A stretch of 43,178 nucleotides of DNA from Planctomycetota bacterium. Its GTDB lineage: Bacteria; Planctomycetota; SZUA-567; H5-PLA8. Of this stretch, positions 2,310-21,544 are shown in pieces (positions within the stretch are counted from its first letter, which is position 1; each line of letters opens with the position of its first letter). The notes beneath the pieces are model-generated. The model saw only the letters and a program-made list of their open reading frames with translations. It ran no database searches and was not told the DNA's origin. A program made the translations under genes and the position numbers. The stretch spans positions 1 to 43,178 of the forward strand of contig JBBRPR010000067.1 of assembly GCA_038227875.1 (NCBI GenBank). The letters run 5' to 3'.

Positions 2310-4016
2310 ATGCGCGTGTTACTTATTGCCACGGCAGTACTACTCGGATTTGCAGCCCACGCGGAAACCACCGTCTGGTGCGTCGGCGAATCCACGAAAA
2401 TAAAAGCGACCGATGCCCCGGGAAAAAGTTCGATCTGGGATGCCGCCACGCATACCGTGACACTCGGCAGCGCCCGCAACGAATACGTCGCGTTCCAGAT
2501 TGGCGTCCACGCGGATAAGGACGAACTGGCCGGCGTCACCGTCGTTCCGGCCGACTTGAAAGGGCCGGGCGGTGCCACGATCCCGGCGACGAACATCGAT
2601 CTGTTCGTCGAACACTACCTGAATGTCACGGTCTCCTCGCGCGGCGACGAGAAGTCGCCCTTCCCCGGTTGCACGACCGGAGAACATCCCACGCAAATGG
2701 TGCCGTTTGGCGCGAAAAAATTTGGCGCACCATTTACCGTTGGTGCGGGCCGCAATCAGCCGGTGTGGATCGACATTTACGTCCCCGAAGACGCCGCTCC
2801 CGGCGACTACAAAGGCACGTTCAAAGTGAAAGCCGGCGAGACCGCGCTGGGCGACGTCAACGTGGCGCTGACGGTCTGGAAATTCACACTGCCGCAAGAG
2901 ACGCATTTTCGCAGCTACCTCTATACCGGCCCGGAGAATCTGCGCTGGGGCCACCGCATCAAGGATCTCCCCAGCATCTATGATGCAAAATTTCTCGAAT
3001 TGGAAGACCATTACTTCCAGATGGCGCATCAGCACCGCTTGAATTTCCATCCTGTTGGCGGCACGGGCCTCGAGGAAGTGCTCGACCATCATTACAAATA
3101 TTACGACGGCTCCGGCTTCACCCAGCGCGTTGGCAAAGGCGTCGGTCAGAACGTCGCCTGCATCACGCCGGAAGGCAAAGACGAAGCGAGCTTCAAGAAG
3201 ATCGCCAAGGAGATCGTCGAAAAGTGGGAGCGCAAGACGCCCAAGGCGGTGCTCTTCGCGTACATGTGGGACGAACCGCATTCGCCGGAGGACTTCGCTG
3301 AATCCAAGCAGCGCTGCAAATGGGTGCACGACGCCGTCGGCAAGAAACTCCCCACGTTCATCGCCACGCCGCAGTGGCAGAAGTATGAAGCCGGCGACGT
3401 CAACTTTTACTCTGAGCCATCCGCCGAAGACATCCCCAAGATTCTCGAACGCGGCGACGCCGTCTGGGCTGTCAATGGCGGCTACGGCGGCGGACCGTAC
3501 GTCGATGCGCCGGGATACGGCGGCCGTTCAATCGTCTGGATGAACTGGAAGATGAAGCTGGCCGGCTGGCAGTTCTGGGACTGCTGCTACTGGGTCGACA
3601 AGCAGAACCGCAAACACAAGGAAGGCAAGCGCTGGGTCGGCGACATGAATTACGGGCAGATCAACGCCGATCCCGAACGCTACCTCGAAAAACTCTGGTC
3701 TGATCCGATGAACTTCGACGAAAGCCGCAAGAAAGGCTACCGCATCGCCGACGCCATCCGCATCAACGGCGACGGTCTGCTCTACTATCCCGGCTTCGAT
3801 GTCGGCATCGACGGTCCGGTCGCGAGCTTCGCCGTGAAGTCCCTGCGCCGCGGCGCCCAGGACTACGAATACCTCTGGCTGCTCAAGCAGGCCGGCAAGG
3901 AAAAGGAAACGGAAGCGATCGTCAACTCCGTCTGCCCCTCCCCCGGCAAGTGGAGCGAAGACATCGAAGCCTGGGAAAAAGCGCGCCTGGATTTGGCGGC
4001 GCTGCTGAACAAGTAG
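2310..4016 (+). CDS. Secreted DUF4091 / GH123-like glycoside hydrolase domain protein
   Basis: Signal peptide; ARNEYVAFQI, NQPVWIDIYVP..A.PG.Y.G, LTVWKFTLP, YMWDEP, NGDGLLYYPG, LRRGAQDYEYL motifs typical of DUF4091 proteins. Confidence 0.75.
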   Translation: MRVLLIATAVLLGFAAHAETTVWCVGESTKIKATDAPGKSSIWDAATHTVTLGSARNEYVAFQIGVHADKDELAGVTVVPADLKGPGGATIPATNIDLFVEHYLNVTVSSRGDEKSPFPGCTTGEHPTQMVPFGAKKFGAPFTVGAGRNQPVWIDIYVPEDAAPGDYKGTFKVKAGETALGDVNVALTVWKFTLPQETHFRSYLYTGPENLRWGHRIKDLPSIYDAKFLELEDHYFQMAHQHRLNFHPVGGTGLEEVLDHHYKYYDGSGFTQRVGKGVGQNVACITPEGKDEASFKKIAKEIVEKWERKTPKAVLFAYMWDEPHSPEDFAESKQRCKWVHDAVGKKLPTFIATPQWQKYEAGDVNFYSEPSAEDIPKILERGDAVWAVNGGYGGGPYVDAPGYGGRSIVWMNWKMKLAGWQFWDCCYWVDKQNRKHKEGKRWVGDMNYGQINADPERYLEKLWSDPMNFDESRKKGYRIADAIRINGDGLLYYPGFDVGIDGPVASFAVKSLRRGAQDYEYLWLLKQAGKEKETEAIVNSVCPSPGKWSEDIEAWEKARLDLAALLNK

Positions 4017-20271: not shown

Positions 20272-20655
20272 CTAGTGAAGCATCTGCTTTTCTTCTGAAC
20301 AAATGGCCGCTGGCCGCCACAACTTCAACTTTCGAAACACCCGCGCGTCCGCGCTCGGATGCACGGCCAGAGCGGTCATCGCGTGCTGCAGGTCCGGCTC
20401 GATGAAAAATTCGCTGGCGACGCCACGAGCGGTAAGCTCGCGGTGCCAACGTCTCAATTCCGGTTCGTTTTCGACGCCGAGGACGACCAGCGTTTTATGC
20501 TCGGCGGCCCAGTTGCGGACCTATGGGTCCGCGCCGTGCTTGAGCATGAATTCGGCCAGCGCGTGGGCGGTCTGGACGACCGCCTGCGCTGGGGTGAGGT
20601 CCTGGCGCGTCAGGATGTAGAGCCTGCGCGCGTTCGTCTCATCACGATTGCCCAT
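20272..20655 (-). CDS. PTH2-like (PTRHD1/phage-type) peptidyl-tRNA hydrolase interrupted by one in-frame amber TAG (codon 45, 20523-20521); recoded gene or pseudogene
   Basis: MGNRDETNARRLYILTRQDLTPAQAVVQTAHALAEFMLKHGADP*VRNWAAEHKTLVVLGVENEPELRRWHRELTARGVASEFFIEPDLQHAMTALAVHPSADARVFRKLKLW...; both halves in the same frame with PTH2-like motifs; SD GGGAGG. Confidence 0.8.
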
Positions 20656-21166
20656 GTTGCGCCTCCCGTCTGGCGGCGGTAAAGCGTTCGGCTTCCGCGA
20701 AACGTTCCGGGTCGGCCGCCAGTTCAATCAACGTGGACGAGAGCGACGCCAGCGCGCTGAAGATCAACGCAGAAGCCTTTGCGCGCGAGACGTGATGCGC
20801 AAACTTGCCAGCGCGGACGGCTTTCCGGACGTCCTTCTTCAGCGGCAGTGCGCCGTTGCCAAACTTCAGCAGATGAAGCGCCGTGAGCCAGCGCGACGCC
20901 TCCTCGCGGGCGGCGAGATACTCCGGCCAGCTGGGATGGGGCGGCGAGATGCAGGCGGTGACTTTTTCGTAGGCTTCCCAACGCTGCGTCCATCCGGCGT
21001 CGAGATCGAAGGCGCATTTGCGGCGGCACCTGAACACCGCGCCGTCGGGCGAAACGTAGACCCATTTCTGAGCCGTCTCGGATTTGAACGCGTCGGACTT
21101 CAACCGGCGAATCCGTTCGGAAACCTGAGCGACGTGGAACTGCAAGACCTGTGTAATCGTGACCAT
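20642..21166 (-). CDS. Hypothetical 174-aa protein overlapping the start of the PTH2-like gene
   Basis: Start MVTITQVL after SD GAGGAG; ends in TGA; 14-bp overlap with the downstream gene. Confidence 0.75.
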   Translation of the reverse strand: MVTITQVLQFHVAQVSERIRRLKSDAFKSETAQKWVYVSPDGAVFRCRRKCAFDLDAGWTQRWEAYEKVTACISPPHPSWPEYLAAREEASRWLTALHLLKFGNGALPLKKDVRKAVRAGKFAHHVSRAKASALIFSALASLSSTLIELAADPERFAEAERFTAARREAQHGQS

Positions 21167-21174
21167 GTGTAAAA

Positions 21175-21233
21175 CTCCTCGCAAAAAGGTTGGTTGTGAA
21201 ACTGCACGCGAACGTGGGAACCAGCCTGCGAGG
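21175..21233 (-). promoter_or_regulatory. SD-sequestering hairpin upstream of the 174-aa gene
   Basis: CCUCGCA pairs with UGCGAGG (covers GAGG of SD GAGGAG), UGGUU/AACCA, apical CACG-UUCG-CGUG. Confidence 0.7.
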
Positions 21234-21260
21234 TCACGGCGGACGGAAGACCTAGAGCAT
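21234..21260 (-). CDS. uORF2 / minigene ATG-CTC-TAG (ML*; readthrough product ML-X-VFRPP ending at TGA)
   Basis: Strong SD AAAGGAG 5 nt before ATG at 21260; TAG 21254-21252; next stop TGA 21236-21234 directly abuts the SD-sequestering hairpin. Confidence 0.6.
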
Positions 21261-21311
21261 GGCGTCTCCTTTCGGATGGCTTGGAATGTGTAAGTGAGAA
21301 TGGATGCGCGC

Positions 21312-21348
21312 AAAAACAAAAAGGCCAACGGGAACGCCGCTGACCTTT
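21312..21348 (-). terminator. Intrinsic terminator/attenuator inside the leader
   Basis: AAAGGTCAGCGG-CGTTC-CCGTTGGCCTTT followed by TTGTTTTT. Confidence 0.8.
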
Positions 21349-21383: not shown

Positions 21384-21401
21384 CTAGAGAAAACCGCGCA
21401 T
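21384..21401 (-). CDS. uORF1 leader peptide MRGFL* ending in TAG
   Basis: SD AAAGGA 6 nt before ATG CGC GGT TTT CTC TAG; the frame stays open past the TAG through the terminator and is in frame with uORF2. Confidence 0.55.
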   Translation of the reverse strand: MRGFL

Positions 21402-21435
21402 CGTTAGTCCTTTGAGTTGCCTGCTTATGCACTTA

Positions 21436-21464
21436 CCTATACCTCGCGAAAAGCAGGAAGTCAA
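21436..21464 (-). promoter_or_regulatory. Candidate sigma-70 promoter for the leader, immediately 3' of the CUA tRNA
   Basis: TTGACT-N17-TATAGG on the minus strand. Confidence 0.5.
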
Positions 21465-21468
21465 ATTT

Positions 21469-21544
21469 TGGTGGCCCCGGCGGGAGTCTCACCCGCAACC
21501 GCAAGCTTTAGAGGCGAGCTGCTCTGGAATTGAGCTACGGGACC
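21469..21544 (-). tRNA. Atypical tRNA with CUA anticodon (amber suppressor / tRNA-Pyl-like)
   Basis: GGTCCCG TA GCTC AATTCCA GAGC A GCTCGC CTCTAAA GCTTGC GGTT GCGGG TGAGACT CCCGC CGGGGCC ACCA: 76 nt, paired acceptor, D and T stems, encoded CCA, loop CU-CUA-AA. Anticodon stem has two pyrimidine mismatches, D-loop lacks GG, T-loop lacks TTC. Confidence 0.85.

What the first reader, a model, noticed from the sequence alone, without database searches (positions are those of the whole stretch)
21164..21273. Minigene ATG-CTC-TAG whose readthrough stop abuts a hairpin hiding the next gene's SD
Seen: AAAGGAG-ACGCC-ATG CTC TAG GTC TTC CGT CCG CCG TGA is followed immediately by CCTCGCA. That segment pairs with TGCGAGG, which overlaps the SD GAGGAG of the 174-aa gene (inner helices TGGTT/AACCA and CACG-TTCG-CGTG). 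Inference: a ribosome stopping at TAG sits 18 nt short of the hairpin, while one reading through to TGA would melt it and free the SD. Established: two-codon minigenes such as lambda bar cause peptidyl-tRNA drop-off that needs Pth. A minigene upstream of a Pth-like gene could therefore also sense drop-off or termination stress.
Basis: partly seen in the sequence, partly recalled or inferred. Interest (0 to 1): 0.82.

Follow-up and report, generated by a model that had tools for sequence, protein, structure and literature searches.

The report
Amber-gated leader of suppressor-tRNA cassette
A tiny leader gene with built-in UAG stops sits between a UAG-reading tRNA gene and two small genes, and most likely lets those genes be made only when that tRNA is overriding UAG.

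Summary
In the window alone the hairpin folds no better than shuffled sequence (z +0.19). One distant metagenome locus (L003, neighbouring protein 49% identical) keeps a 44-base run with no change. That run covers the ribosome-binding site, ATG-CTC-TAG, five codons, TGA and the hairpin's 5' arm.

About 200 bases upstream lies a tRNA with a CUA (UAG-reading) anticodon. A second mini-ORF, M-(R/S)-G-F-L-TAG, lies in the same frame, ahead of a terminator-like hairpin. The PTH2-like (peptidyl-tRNA-hydrolase-like) gene downstream has an in-frame TAG at codon 45. That TAG is at the same codon in L003, and six short protein fragments from six contigs all end there.

Best reading (0.6): a self-contained cassette whose leader tests UAG read-through. 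A ribosome released at TAG leaves the hairpin intact. One that reads on stops at Pro-Pro-TGA, covers the 5' arm and lowers the modelled cost of opening the next gene's ribosome-binding site. The lambda-bar-like drop-off idea is not supported.

I found no paper describing such a sensor. Earlier unchecked notes of this scan report similar leaders in phages. Everything rests on sequence comparison, with DNA from only two loci.

The parts
21469..21544 (-). tRNA with CUA anticodon (reads UAG). CCA end is encoded. D loop lacks GG and T loop lacks T-Psi-C. Two non-standard pairs sit in the anticodon stem.
   Evidence: ARAGORN. Rfam tRNA 40.5 bits against cut-off 29. It is the only CUA tRNA among 81 tRNA calls in the genome. 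73 of 76 bases are identical in L003, with a compensatory G:C to C:G change at pair 2:71.
21436..21464 (-). Promoter-like pair: TTGACT, 17 bases, TATAGG. Inferred only.
   Evidence: Read from the sequence. L003 has TTGACA, 17 bases, TATAGA at the same place. The consensus scan did not call it, because the last base of the second hexamer is not T.
21384..21413 (-). First mini-ORF: AAAGGA ribosome-binding site, then ATG CGC GGT TTT CTC TAG (M-R-G-F-L-amber).
   Evidence: L003 has ATG AGC GGT TTC TTG TAG. Phe and Leu are kept through synonymous changes and the TAG is kept.
21310..21348 (-). Terminator-like hairpin with a T run. It is crossed by the read-through frame of the first mini-ORF.
   Evidence: The terminator scan calls it in the window, and at the same relative place in L003. 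A strain variant changes only its loop.
21234..21272 (-). The finding's minigene: ribosome-binding site AAAGGAG, then ATG CTC TAG GTC TTC CGT CCG CCG TGA (M-L-amber-V-F-R-P-P-stop). It is in frame with the first mini-ORF.
   Evidence: The two ATGs are 141 bases apart in the window and 147 in L003, with no other stop between them in either. The sequence is identical in L003.
21227..21270 (-). Run of 44 bases with no change between the two loci.
   Evidence: It is the second-longest identical run in the 1.4-kb alignment, after the tRNA core (56 bases).
21177..21233 (-). Hairpin whose 3' arm holds the ribosome-binding site of the 174-codon gene.
   Evidence: RNAfold. RNAalifold on two sequences gives 9 outer pairs and 4 apical pairs, one of them compensatory. 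Opening-cost model.
20642..21166 (-). Gene for a 174-aa protein of unknown family (ribosome-binding site GAGGAG 21180-21175).
   Evidence: 7 relatives among 5.8 billion proteins. 96 remote relatives by profile search. No Pfam or PHROG match. Confident model (pLDDT 87) without a fold match.
20272..20655 (-). PTH2-like gene with an in-frame TAG at codon 45 (20523-20521). Its start overlaps the end of the 174-codon gene.
   Evidence: The Pfam PTH2 match, 34.8 bits against cut-off 23, spans residues 12-106 across the TAG. L003 has TAG at the same codon. Six short protein fragments all end there. Both sides score as coding.
20552..20592 (-). Run of 41 invariant bases inside the PTH2-like gene. It can form a two-part hairpin and lies about 30 bases before the in-frame TAG. 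Role unknown.
   Evidence: third-longest identical run. The pairing was read by eye.

Best explanation
This is the translated leader of a small self-contained cassette. The cassette reads, in order: tRNA(CUA), promoter-like site, leader, 174-aa protein gene, PTH2-like gene. The leader reports whether UAG is being read through.

Shown:
- The leader frame carries two TAGs and no other stop before the TGA.
- The TGA abuts the 5' arm of a hairpin whose 3' arm holds the next gene's ribosome-binding site.
- The PTH2-like gene has its own conserved in-frame TAG.

Inferred, for the finding's minigene:
- A ribosome that starts at it is normally released at UAG, 18 bases short of the hairpin. The ribosome-binding site then stays paired.
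- If the cassette's tRNA decodes UAG, the ribosome adds V-F-R-P-P and reaches UGA. A Pro-Pro end slows release there.
- The paused ribosome covers the 5' arm, which frees the ribosome-binding site.

Inferred, upstream:
- The first mini-ORF applies the same test ahead of a terminator-like hairpin.
- Only a ribosome that reads through its UAG can follow the polymerase across that hairpin and hinder termination.

The in-frame TAG in the PTH2-like gene is a third gate. Operon output should therefore rise steeply with suppressor activity.
For: Sequence and geometry.

Agent present:
- A tRNA(CUA) lies about 200 bases upstream and is the only one in the genome.
- It is under selection: 73 of 76 bases are identical in L003, with a compensatory acceptor-stem pair.

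Conservation against a diverged background:
- Minigene block 43 of 43 identical.
- Neutral-like stretches are 0.32-0.45 identical.

Frame kept: both mini-ORFs share one frame without other stops in both loci, although the spacing differs by 6 bases.

First mini-ORF: it keeps Phe, Leu and TAG through synonymous changes.

The peptide between the two TAGs is not conserved:
- It differs between the two loci.
- Three of four strain differences there change the residue, and none makes a stop.
- This suits a frame kept open for ribosome transit rather than a protein.

Terminator-like hairpin: called at the same relative place in both loci.

Hairpin: folds in both loci.

Opening cost of the ribosome-binding site, for no ribosome / ribosome at TAG / ribosome at TGA:
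- GAGG alone: 5.1 / 5.2 / 2.6 kcal/mol in the window and 9.5 / 9.4 / 2.8 in L003.
- Whole 30S site: 11.0 / 10.6 / 7.1 and 18.0 / 18.8 / 8.3.

Pro-Pro end: in E. coli a C-terminal Pro-Pro interferes with termination and arrests ribosomes in all contexts tested (PMC3834316, passages read).

Third gate:
- TAG lies at the same codon of the PTH2-like gene in both loci.
- 6 of 6 short fragments from six contigs end there.

The host uses TAG as an ordinary stop, so a suppressor needs control:
- TAG ends 26% of open frames of 400 or more codons.
- An RF1-like (release factor 1) gene is present.

Outside parallel: Mycobacterium phage Alice has a PTH2-type gene followed 250 bases later by an annotated suppressor tRNA(cta). 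ATG-TAG lies in frame just before the annotated start.
Against: - DNA is available from only two loci. Covariation amounts to one compensatory pair.
- In the window alone the hairpin is no more stable than shuffles.
- The modelled probability that the ribosome-binding site is unpaired does not rise with a ribosome at TGA. It is 0.27 / 0.25 / 0.22 in the window and 0.20 / 0.21 / 0.24 in L003, because the site re-pairs weakly elsewhere. The window's gain in opening cost is modest (2.5-3.9 kcal/mol).
- The promoter-like site fails the consensus scan.
- The terminator count is not above shuffles (2 found against 2.1 expected).
- The tRNA is odd: it lacks the G18-G19 and T-Psi-C elbow, and its anticodon stem has U-U and C-U mismatches. 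Its charging, and the amino acid it would carry, are unknown.
- 100% identity over 44 bases is more than a peptide, two stops and a 7-base arm would need. Some further constraint is unexplained.
- The end F-R-P-P is not one of the characterised R-A/G-P-P arrest motifs.
- There is no expression evidence for the leader. One metatranscriptome contig covers only part of the 174-codon gene and may be DNA carry-over.
Confidence: 0.6

Rival explanations
1. Linkage lock without sensing. The TAGs only make the two genes dependent on the neighbouring tRNA, so that the three parts are inherited and expressed together. Suppression is constitutive, and the hairpin is ordinary mRNA structure with no switching role.
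For: TAGs sit in every translated part of the cassette. The cassette lies in unrelated neighbourhoods in the two loci, as a mobile unit would. The residue at the in-frame TAG site is not conserved in uninterrupted relatives: Q in 1 of 4 and A in 3 of 4.
Against: A lock needs only the TAG inside the gene. It does not explain two extra TAGs in a non-conserved leader frame. It also does not explain the invariant TGA abutting the hairpin arm, or the Pro-Pro end.
Confidence: 0.15
2. Bar-like minigene. ATG-CTC-TAG is translated, and fMet-Leu-tRNA drops off. This loads or senses the peptidyl-tRNA hydrolase pathway, which the PTH2-like gene then serves.
For: A ribosome-binding site followed by a two-codon ORF and a stop is present. 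The operon encodes a PTH2-family protein.
Against: A canonical pth gene is present elsewhere in the genome (186.7 bits). The five codons after TAG and the TGA are invariant, which a two-codon minigene does not need. A tRNA(CUA) lies beside it, and the PTH2-like gene has an in-frame TAG.
Confidence: 0.05
3. Direct tRNA sensing without translation, working like a T-box. UAG is displayed in the 12-base loop of a small hairpin (GGAGAC pairs with GTCTTC). It pairs with the CUA anticodon, and the tRNA's ACCA end competes with AACCA for TGGTT inside the large hairpin.
For: RNAalifold predicts the small hairpin with AUG-CUC-UAG in its loop in both loci. TGGT is complementary to the tRNA's ACCA end (read). 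This would help explain identity at every base of the block.
Against: No T-box or other Rfam family matches either leader, even at E up to 10. Both mini-ORFs have ribosome-binding sites and start codons. They share a frame kept open across a 6-base length difference. Four-base complementarity is weak evidence.
Confidence: 0.07
4. The whole 55-57-codon frame encodes one small protein with two UAG-encoded residues, and the hairpins are incidental.
For: One open frame runs from the first ATG to the TGA in both loci.
Against: The middle of the peptide is not conserved between the loci. Three of four strain variants there change the residue. Its only shared stretch coincides with the terminator hairpin and T run.
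Confidence: 0.05
5. Decaying remnant: a broken PTH2 gene and a degenerate tRNA-like sequence with no function.
For: The tRNA scores low for a bacterial tRNA (40.5 bits) and lacks standard loop motifs. The cassette is very rare.
Against: The stop lies at the same codon in six contigs whose N-terminal sequences differ. Both halves of the gene score as coding. The tRNA shows a compensatory change. Three long invariant runs stand in a diverged background.
Confidence: 0.03

Closest known systems
Leader-peptide translational attenuation (ermC, cat and cmlA leaders; secM-secA; mifM-yidC2). Named from my own knowledge.
   Same: A short translated upstream ORF is followed by a hairpin that hides the next gene's ribosome-binding site. 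A ribosome held at a set place in the leader opens that hairpin.
   Different: The signal here is not a drug, a secretion defect or a small molecule. It is whether a UAG inside the leader is read through, most likely by a tRNA encoded beside it. The hold is at a stop codon after Pro-Pro.
C-terminal Pro-Pro termination stall (E. coli YbeL-PP; PMC3834316, passages read) and TnaC, which blocks RF2 at a UGA stop (PMC8450073, abstract seen in a search listing)
   Same: The leader's read-through product ends in Pro-Pro directly before UGA.
   Different: No stall has been shown for this peptide or this organism. TnaC needs a longer peptide and free tryptophan.
RAPP-like arrest peptides (ApdA, ApdP, ApcA, SecM; PMC12992588, passages read)
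   Same: A short upstream ORF ends in Arg and two prolines ahead of a regulated gene.
   Different: The defining four-residue core is R-A/G-P-P, RAPG or RAGP. Here it is F-R-P-P, with no residue between Arg and Pro-Pro, so it is not a member.
Coupling-type transcription attenuation (pyrBI leader, trp and his leaders). Recalled, not read here.
   Same: A leader ORF runs into or through a terminator hairpin. A ribosome close behind the polymerase can then prevent termination.
   Different: The gate would be read-through of a UAG at codon 6, not the supply of a nucleotide or a charged sense tRNA. Termination here is only predicted.
Lambda bar minigenes. Recalled.
   Same: A ribosome-binding site, a start codon, one sense codon and a stop.
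   Different: The frame beyond the stop is conserved and functional-looking, and a matching suppressor tRNA is adjacent.
Phage suppressor tRNAs beside PTH2-type genes, for example Mycobacterium phage Alice gp150 with tRNA-suppressor(cta)
   Same: A PTH2-family gene and a stop-reading tRNA are adjacent. In Alice a TAG lies in frame at the very start of the gene. A stop-reading tRNA lay within the fetched flanks in 3 of the 7 phage loci I looked at.
   Different: This cassette sits among ordinary cellular genes. It has a two-TAG leader with a terminator and a hairpin over the ribosome-binding site. It adds a 174-aa protein that gave no tblastn match in phage or plasmid records. Its tRNA has a non-standard elbow.
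Earlier notes of this scan on amber-gated leaders in phages (e1-5680253, e1-5911500, e1-5965075, e1-5878212, e1-6074799, e1-5824617). These are AI notes, mostly unchecked.
   Same: A tiny leader with a UAG, a hidden ribosome-binding site, the phage's own UAG-reading tRNA, and in one case a Pth2-like operon.
   Different: Those are in phages and often end in RAPP or RGPP. This one is in a 9.3-Mb bacterial assembly and ends in FRPP. It combines three gates with the tRNA in a unit of about 1.3 kb.

Membership tests
Leader-peptide translational attenuator (erm/cat type) | Short upstream ORF with its own ribosome-binding site and start codon | tested here: met
   AAAGGAG, 5 bases, then ATG. Identical in L003. 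Translation itself is not shown.
Leader-peptide translational attenuator (erm/cat type) | Hairpin pairs the downstream gene's ribosome-binding site | tested here: met
   In the minimum-energy folds of both loci and in the consensus fold.
Leader-peptide translational attenuator (erm/cat type) | A ribosome held at a defined leader codon opens the hairpin and raises downstream translation | tested here: inconclusive
   The model shows that opening cost falls only with a ribosome at TGA, but the unpaired probability does not rise. Needs toeprints and reporters.
RAPP-like arrest peptides | C-terminal core R-A/G-P-P, RAPG or RAGP (PMC12992588) | tested here: not met
   The read-through peptide ends V-F-R-P-P.
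Pro-Pro-stop termination stall | Two prolines directly before the stop codon | tested here: met
   CCG CCG TGA in both loci. The stall itself is not testable here.
Lambda bar-type minigene | Two-codon ORF whose peptidyl-tRNA drops off and burdens Pth | not testable with these tools
   The form ATG-CTC-TAG is present. The context argues against this being its role.
T-box riboswitch | Match to the Rfam T-box model (Stem I, specifier loop, T-box bulge) | tested here: not met
   No match at E up to 10 in either leader.
tRNA | Cloverleaf that matches Rfam RF00005 above its cut-off | tested here: met
   40.5 and 42.2 bits against cut-off 29.
tRNA | Standard elbow (G18-G19 in the D loop, T-Psi-C in the T loop) | tested here: not met
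   The D loop reads AAUUCCA and the T loop UGAGACU.
Pyrrolysine system | PylS and PylD genes in the genome | tested here: not met
   No PylS match. The best PylD match is 28.3 bits against cut-off 150. The assembly is 88% complete.
Genome-wide TAG reassignment | TAG rare as a stop, release factor 1 lost, many in-frame TAGs | tested here: not met
   TAG ends 26% of long open frames. An RF1-like gene is present. There is no excess of TAG-bridged coding-like frames: 17% against 20% for TGA and 13% for TAA.
PTH2 (Pfam PF01981) | Profile match above the curated cut-off | tested here: met
   34.8 bits against cut-off 23, spanning the TAG. Best solved relative is 2zv3, E 2.9e-6. Enzyme activity was not tested.

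The most novel reading that the evidence does not exclude
The cassette is a self-regulating dose-controller for stop-codon suppression. The odd-elbowed tRNA(CUA) is measured three times by UAG gates. The PTH2-like enzyme, made in proportion to suppression, hydrolyses the ester bond on this very tRNA (aminoacyl or peptidyl form). The 174-aa protein helps to recognise the tRNA. Together they hold UAG read-through at a low set level in a cell where a quarter of genes end in TAG. This would be a natural, portable, feedback-controlled nonsense-suppression module. It would also give a function to the PTH2-with-suppressor-tRNA pairing seen in large phages.
Probability: 0.2. Interest if true: 0.9.

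Novelty: new variant of a known kind. Interest (0 to 1): 0.8.

Why it matters
Suppressor tRNAs occur in phages and bacteria that use the standard code, and their targets are mostly unknown. The authors of the XacN1 jumbo-phage paper state that they could not identify genes targeted by its two CUA tRNAs (PMC5852040, passages read).

This 1.3-kb unit shows the tRNA and its targets side by side, and the targets are regulatory. If the leader works as proposed, it is a natural sensor of UAG read-through built from ordinary parts: a mini-ORF, a Pro-Pro-stop and a hairpin. That makes the question directly testable with reporters. It is also of practical interest for engineered genetic-code expansion, where suppression levels need to be measured and limited.

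It further links a PTH2-type hydrolase to suppressor tRNAs, a pairing also present in Mycobacterium phage Alice and suggested by tblastn matches in 205 Mycobacterium phage records.

Tried and rejected
More cassette loci:
- The degenerate minigene pattern found nothing in genome contigs or viral contigs. The tRNA anticodon arm found nothing in viral contigs.
- The protein-family scan found nothing in genome contigs or viral contigs and one locus in metagenome contigs.
- 60 relatives' genomes had no 174-aa homologue.
- 400 genomes of the phylum gave only generic tRNA hits to the DNA and nothing to the family profiles. The one exception, in G271 (23.9 bits inside a 713-codon frame), I did not follow.

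Sequencing runs: they gave only short near-identical contigs, and none spanned the minigene.

Function of the 174-aa protein:
- No match in Pfam or PHROGs.
- Pfam on 52 relatives gave hits only on a 775-aa HTH-repeat protein and a weak DUF6076.
- Foldseek against PDB: best E 0.077.
- VIA-align wide: best Z 6.2, within the noise for helical models.
- ESM Atlas: nothing.
- tblastn against phages and plasmids with three family members: nothing.

Empty-site comparison: the closest orthologue of the flanking hydrolase (64% identical, G001) has no tRNA next to it and no shared downstream gene. It is therefore not informative.

Previous reports of this design: six searches turned up no description of a suppressor-sensing leader or of a PTH2-suppressor-tRNA cassette. 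The library lacks most subscription journals.
Full report
**1. What is there**

The finding lies on the minus strand.
- AAAGGAG (21272-21266), five bases, then ATG CTC TAG GTC TTC CGT CCG CCG TGA (21260-21234).
- CCTCGCA (21233-21227) follows at once. It pairs with TGCGAGG (21183-21177).
- TGCGAGG overlaps the ribosome-binding site GAGGAG (21180-21175) of a 174-codon gene that starts at 21166.
- The inner helices TGGTT/AACCA and CACG-TTCG-CGTG are also present.

RNAfold places this hairpin in the minimum-energy structure. On the window alone the fold is no better than shuffled sequence (z +0.19 for 141 nt, -0.29 for 103 nt). The window by itself therefore gives no evidence beyond chance.

**2.

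- ARAGORN and Rfam find a tRNA with anticodon CUA at 21544-21469 on the same strand. It ends 200 bases upstream of the minigene's ribosome-binding site and is the only CUA tRNA among 81 tRNA calls in the 9.3-Mb assembly.
- The gene after the 174-codon gene (20655-20272, starts overlapping) matches Pfam PTH2 from residue 12 to 106. The match runs across an in-frame TAG at codon 45.
- Between the tRNA and the minigene lie three further features:
  - a promoter-like TTGACT, 17 bases, TATAGG;
  - a first mini-ORF, ATG CGC GGT TTT CTC TAG (21401-21384), with its own AAAGGA;
  - a terminator-like hairpin with a T run (21348-21310).
- The first mini-ORF and the finding's minigene are in the same frame with no other stop between them. 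The frame reads M-R-G-F-L-amber, then 43 codons, then M-L-amber-V-F-R-P-P-stop.

**3. Comparison**

The 174-aa protein is rare. It has 7 relatives among 5.8 billion clustered proteins. None was found in 60 related genomes, and none in 400 genomes of the phylum with a family profile.

One metagenome locus, L003, could be read. Its protein is 49% identical. Its neighbours are different ordinary genes (a methyltransferase and an S1/P1-nuclease-like gene; the window has an alpha/beta hydrolase and an ankyrin protein). Yet the whole unit is there in the same order.

Identity by segment:

| Segment | Identical |
|---|---|
| tRNA | 73 of 76 |
| Non-coding spacers | 0.32-0.41 |
| Third codon positions of the 174-codon gene | 0.45 |
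| Block from the minigene's GGAG to the end of the 5' arm | 43 of 43 |

The three longest identical runs in the 1.4-kb alignment are the tRNA core (56 bases), the minigene block (44, 21270-21227) and a stretch inside the PTH2-like gene (41, 20592-20552).

Further points from the comparison:
- The tRNA shows a compensatory G:C to C:G change at acceptor pair 2:71.
- L003's first mini-ORF is ATG AGC GGT TTC TTG TAG. Phe and Leu are kept by synonymous changes, Leu through two base changes.
- The two start codons are 147 bases apart in L003 instead of 141. They are still in frame and still without a stop.
- The terminator-like hairpin is called at the same relative place.
- The large hairpin is kept with a different apical helix and one compensatory pair. 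Its z in L003 is -2.44.
- The peptide between the two TAGs is not conserved. In a near-identical strain contig, three of four differences there change the residue, one falls in the terminator loop, and none makes a stop.

**4. The in-frame TAG of the PTH2-like gene is not a defect**

- L003 has TAG at the same codon.
- A search for short proteins returned six N-terminal fragments of 33-46 residues from six contigs. Two of them are the window and L003. All six end at the same ...HG-x-DP, although their N-terminal residues differ. I could not see the stop codon itself in the other four.
- Both halves score as coding.
- Four uninterrupted relatives (56-59% identical) have Q once and A three times at that site. 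The site is tolerant and gives only a weak hint (Gln) about what is inserted.

**5. The host uses TAG as a normal stop**

- TAG ends 26% of open frames of 400 or more codons.
- An RF1-like gene is present (372 bits, just under the curated cut-off).
- TAG-bridged coding-like frames are not in excess: 17% against 20% for TGA and 13% for TAA.
- PylS and PylD were not found.
- A canonical pth gene exists elsewhere. The cassette's gene is the only PF01981 match in the genome.

**6. How the minigene most likely works**

Shown:
- The geometry. TAG is 18 bases short of the 5' arm, and TGA touches it.
- The model. I took a ribosome that shields 9 bases beyond its A-site codon. Placing it at TAG leaves the cost of opening the ribosome-binding site unchanged. 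Placing it at TGA lowers the cost.

| Opened region | Locus | No ribosome | At TAG | At TGA |
|---|---|---|---|---|
| GAGG alone | window | 5.1 | 5.2 | 2.6 |
| GAGG alone | L003 | 9.5 | 9.4 | 2.8 |
| Whole 30S site | window | 11.0 | 10.6 | 7.1 |
| Whole 30S site | L003 | 18.0 | 18.8 | 8.3 |

(kcal/mol)

Against this, the plain probability that the ribosome-binding site is unpaired does not rise. The site re-pairs weakly with other bases.

From the literature: a C-terminal Pro-Pro interferes with termination and arrests E. coli ribosomes in every context tested (PMC3834316, passages read). A ribosome that has read through UAG should therefore linger at CCG-CCG-UGA.

Inferred:
- The tRNA(CUA) decodes the TAGs.
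- Lingering at UGA frees the ribosome-binding site.
- Read-through of the first TAG lets a ribosome follow the polymerase across the terminator-like hairpin and reduce termination. The principle is that of coupling-type attenuators, which I recall and did not read here.

With the TAG inside the PTH2-like gene, output would depend on suppression at three successive points.

**7. What the leader is not**

- It is not a RAPP-like arrest peptide. The defined cores are R-A/G-P-P, RAPG and RAGP (PMC12992588, passages read), and here the end is F-R-P-P.
- It matches no Rfam family, T-box included, even at E 10.
- A T-box-like reading remains possible at low odds. The consensus fold puts AUG-CUC-UAG in the 12-base loop of a small hairpin whose 5' arm is the minigene's own ribosome-binding site. 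TGGT in the large hairpin is complementary to the tRNA's ACCA end. This might also help explain why all 44 bases are invariant, which the ribosome model alone does not need.

**8. What the cassette is for is open**

The 174-aa protein:
- It folds confidently (pLDDT 87) into helices and a beta hairpin.
- It has no convincing structural relative: Foldseek best E 0.077, VIA-align best Z 6.2.
- It has 96 remote relatives of similar size. None of the 50 similar-sized relatives among the 52 scanned has a Pfam match.

The tRNA:
- It lacks the standard G18-G19 and T-Psi-C elbow.
- It has U-U and C-U mismatches in its anticodon stem, identical in both loci.
- Weakened anticodon stems are reported to raise stop read-through by CUA tRNAs (PMC13092985, passages read). 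Those cases concern the top pair of the stem.

A PTH2-type enzyme beside a stop-reading tRNA is not unique to this locus. tblastn finds PTH2-like genes at 31-36% identity in 272 phage records, 205 of them Mycobacterium phages. I looked at seven loci:
- Mycobacterium phage Alice has an annotated tRNA-suppressor(cta) 250 bases after the gene. It also has ATG-TAG in frame directly before the annotated GTG start.
- Two very large uncultured or Lak phages have a tRNA(UUA) within 100-600 bases.
- Four others have no tRNA within 1.5 kb.

My boldest reading is that the hydrolase acts on the cassette's own tRNA and closes a negative feedback loop. Nothing here tests that.

**9. Earlier notes of this scan**

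They are AI notes, mostly unchecked. They describe amber-gated leaders in phages, including one in front of a Pth2-like operon and several ending in RAPP or RGPP. I learned of them after reaching my reading. They are leads, not support. Two points I checked myself:
- The pairing of a PTH2-like gene with a suppressor tRNA, and a TAG at its start, holds in phage Alice.
- The RAPP label does not apply here.

**10. Literature**

Six full-text searches found no description of a leader that senses suppressor-tRNA activity, or of this cassette. The XacN1 paper says the targets of its CUA tRNAs could not be identified (PMC5852040, passages read). The library lacks most subscription journals, so absence from print is not shown.

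**11. Verdict**

The drop-off idea is not supported.
- The mechanism is a new variant of leader-peptide attenuation.
- Main weaknesses: only two DNA loci, no expression data for the leader, an odd tRNA whose charging is unknown, and a modest modelled effect in the window's own sequence.

Noticed in passing
window 20552-20592 (-): A run of 41 bases inside the PTH2-like gene is identical in L003, third codon positions included. It can pair as a two-part hairpin (7 + 7 pairs) ending about 30 bases before the in-frame TAG. It may help recoding or bind a factor.
   Followed up: partly
window 21469-21544 (-); L003 3611-3686: The tRNA(CUA) has CC where G18-G19 should be and GA where Psi-C should be. 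It has U3:G70 in the acceptor stem, discriminator A73, and two adjacent non-standard pairs in the anticodon stem. All of these are identical in both loci. Its closest tRNA in the same genome is tRNA-Trp(CCA), at 72% identity.
   Followed up: partly
L037 (Mycobacterium phage Alice NC_028986) 2471-2476 and 3101-3173: ATG-TAG lies in frame directly before the annotated GTG start of gp150 (peptidyl-tRNA hydrolase). The annotated suppressor tRNA(cta) follows 250 bases later. A four-codon ORF, ATG GGT TTT AGA TAA, precedes gp149.
   Followed up: partly
L038 (LR745208) 2929-3005; L043 (Lak-B7) 853-925: In two very large phages a tRNA with a UUA anticodon (reads UAA) lies within 100-600 bases of the PTH2-like gene.
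   Followed up: partly
window 21167-21328 (-); L003 3830-4000: The frame of the 174-codon gene stays open for 54-57 codons upstream of its ATG in both loci, back to a TTG inside the terminator's 3' arm. Relatives all start at M-x-T, so the ATG at 21166 is the likely start, but the openness is unexplained.
   Followed up: partly
window 20887-21153: A 267-base contig from a bioreactor metatranscriptome run (X4), with 6 differences, covers part of the 174-codon gene. This is a weak hint of transcription in a close relative; DNA carry-over cannot be excluded.
   Followed up: no
window 20272-20274 (-): The window's PTH2-like gene also ends in TAG, so read-through would add about 46 residues. L003's copy ends in TGA, so this is not conserved.
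   Followed up: no
protein P0082 (775 aa): A protein made of repeated helix-turn-helix units matches positions 62-105 of the 174-aa family profile six times. This hints that the conserved core of the family may be a helix-turn-helix-like unit.
   Followed up: no
G010:C134:40940-42130 and G012:C88:10353-11600: Two paralogues of the flanking alpha/beta hydrolase in related genomes each show one in-frame TAG.
   Followed up: no
genome contigs C13:840-935 and C47:42458-42548: ARAGORN calls two tRNA-SeC(UCA) genes in this assembly.
   Followed up: no
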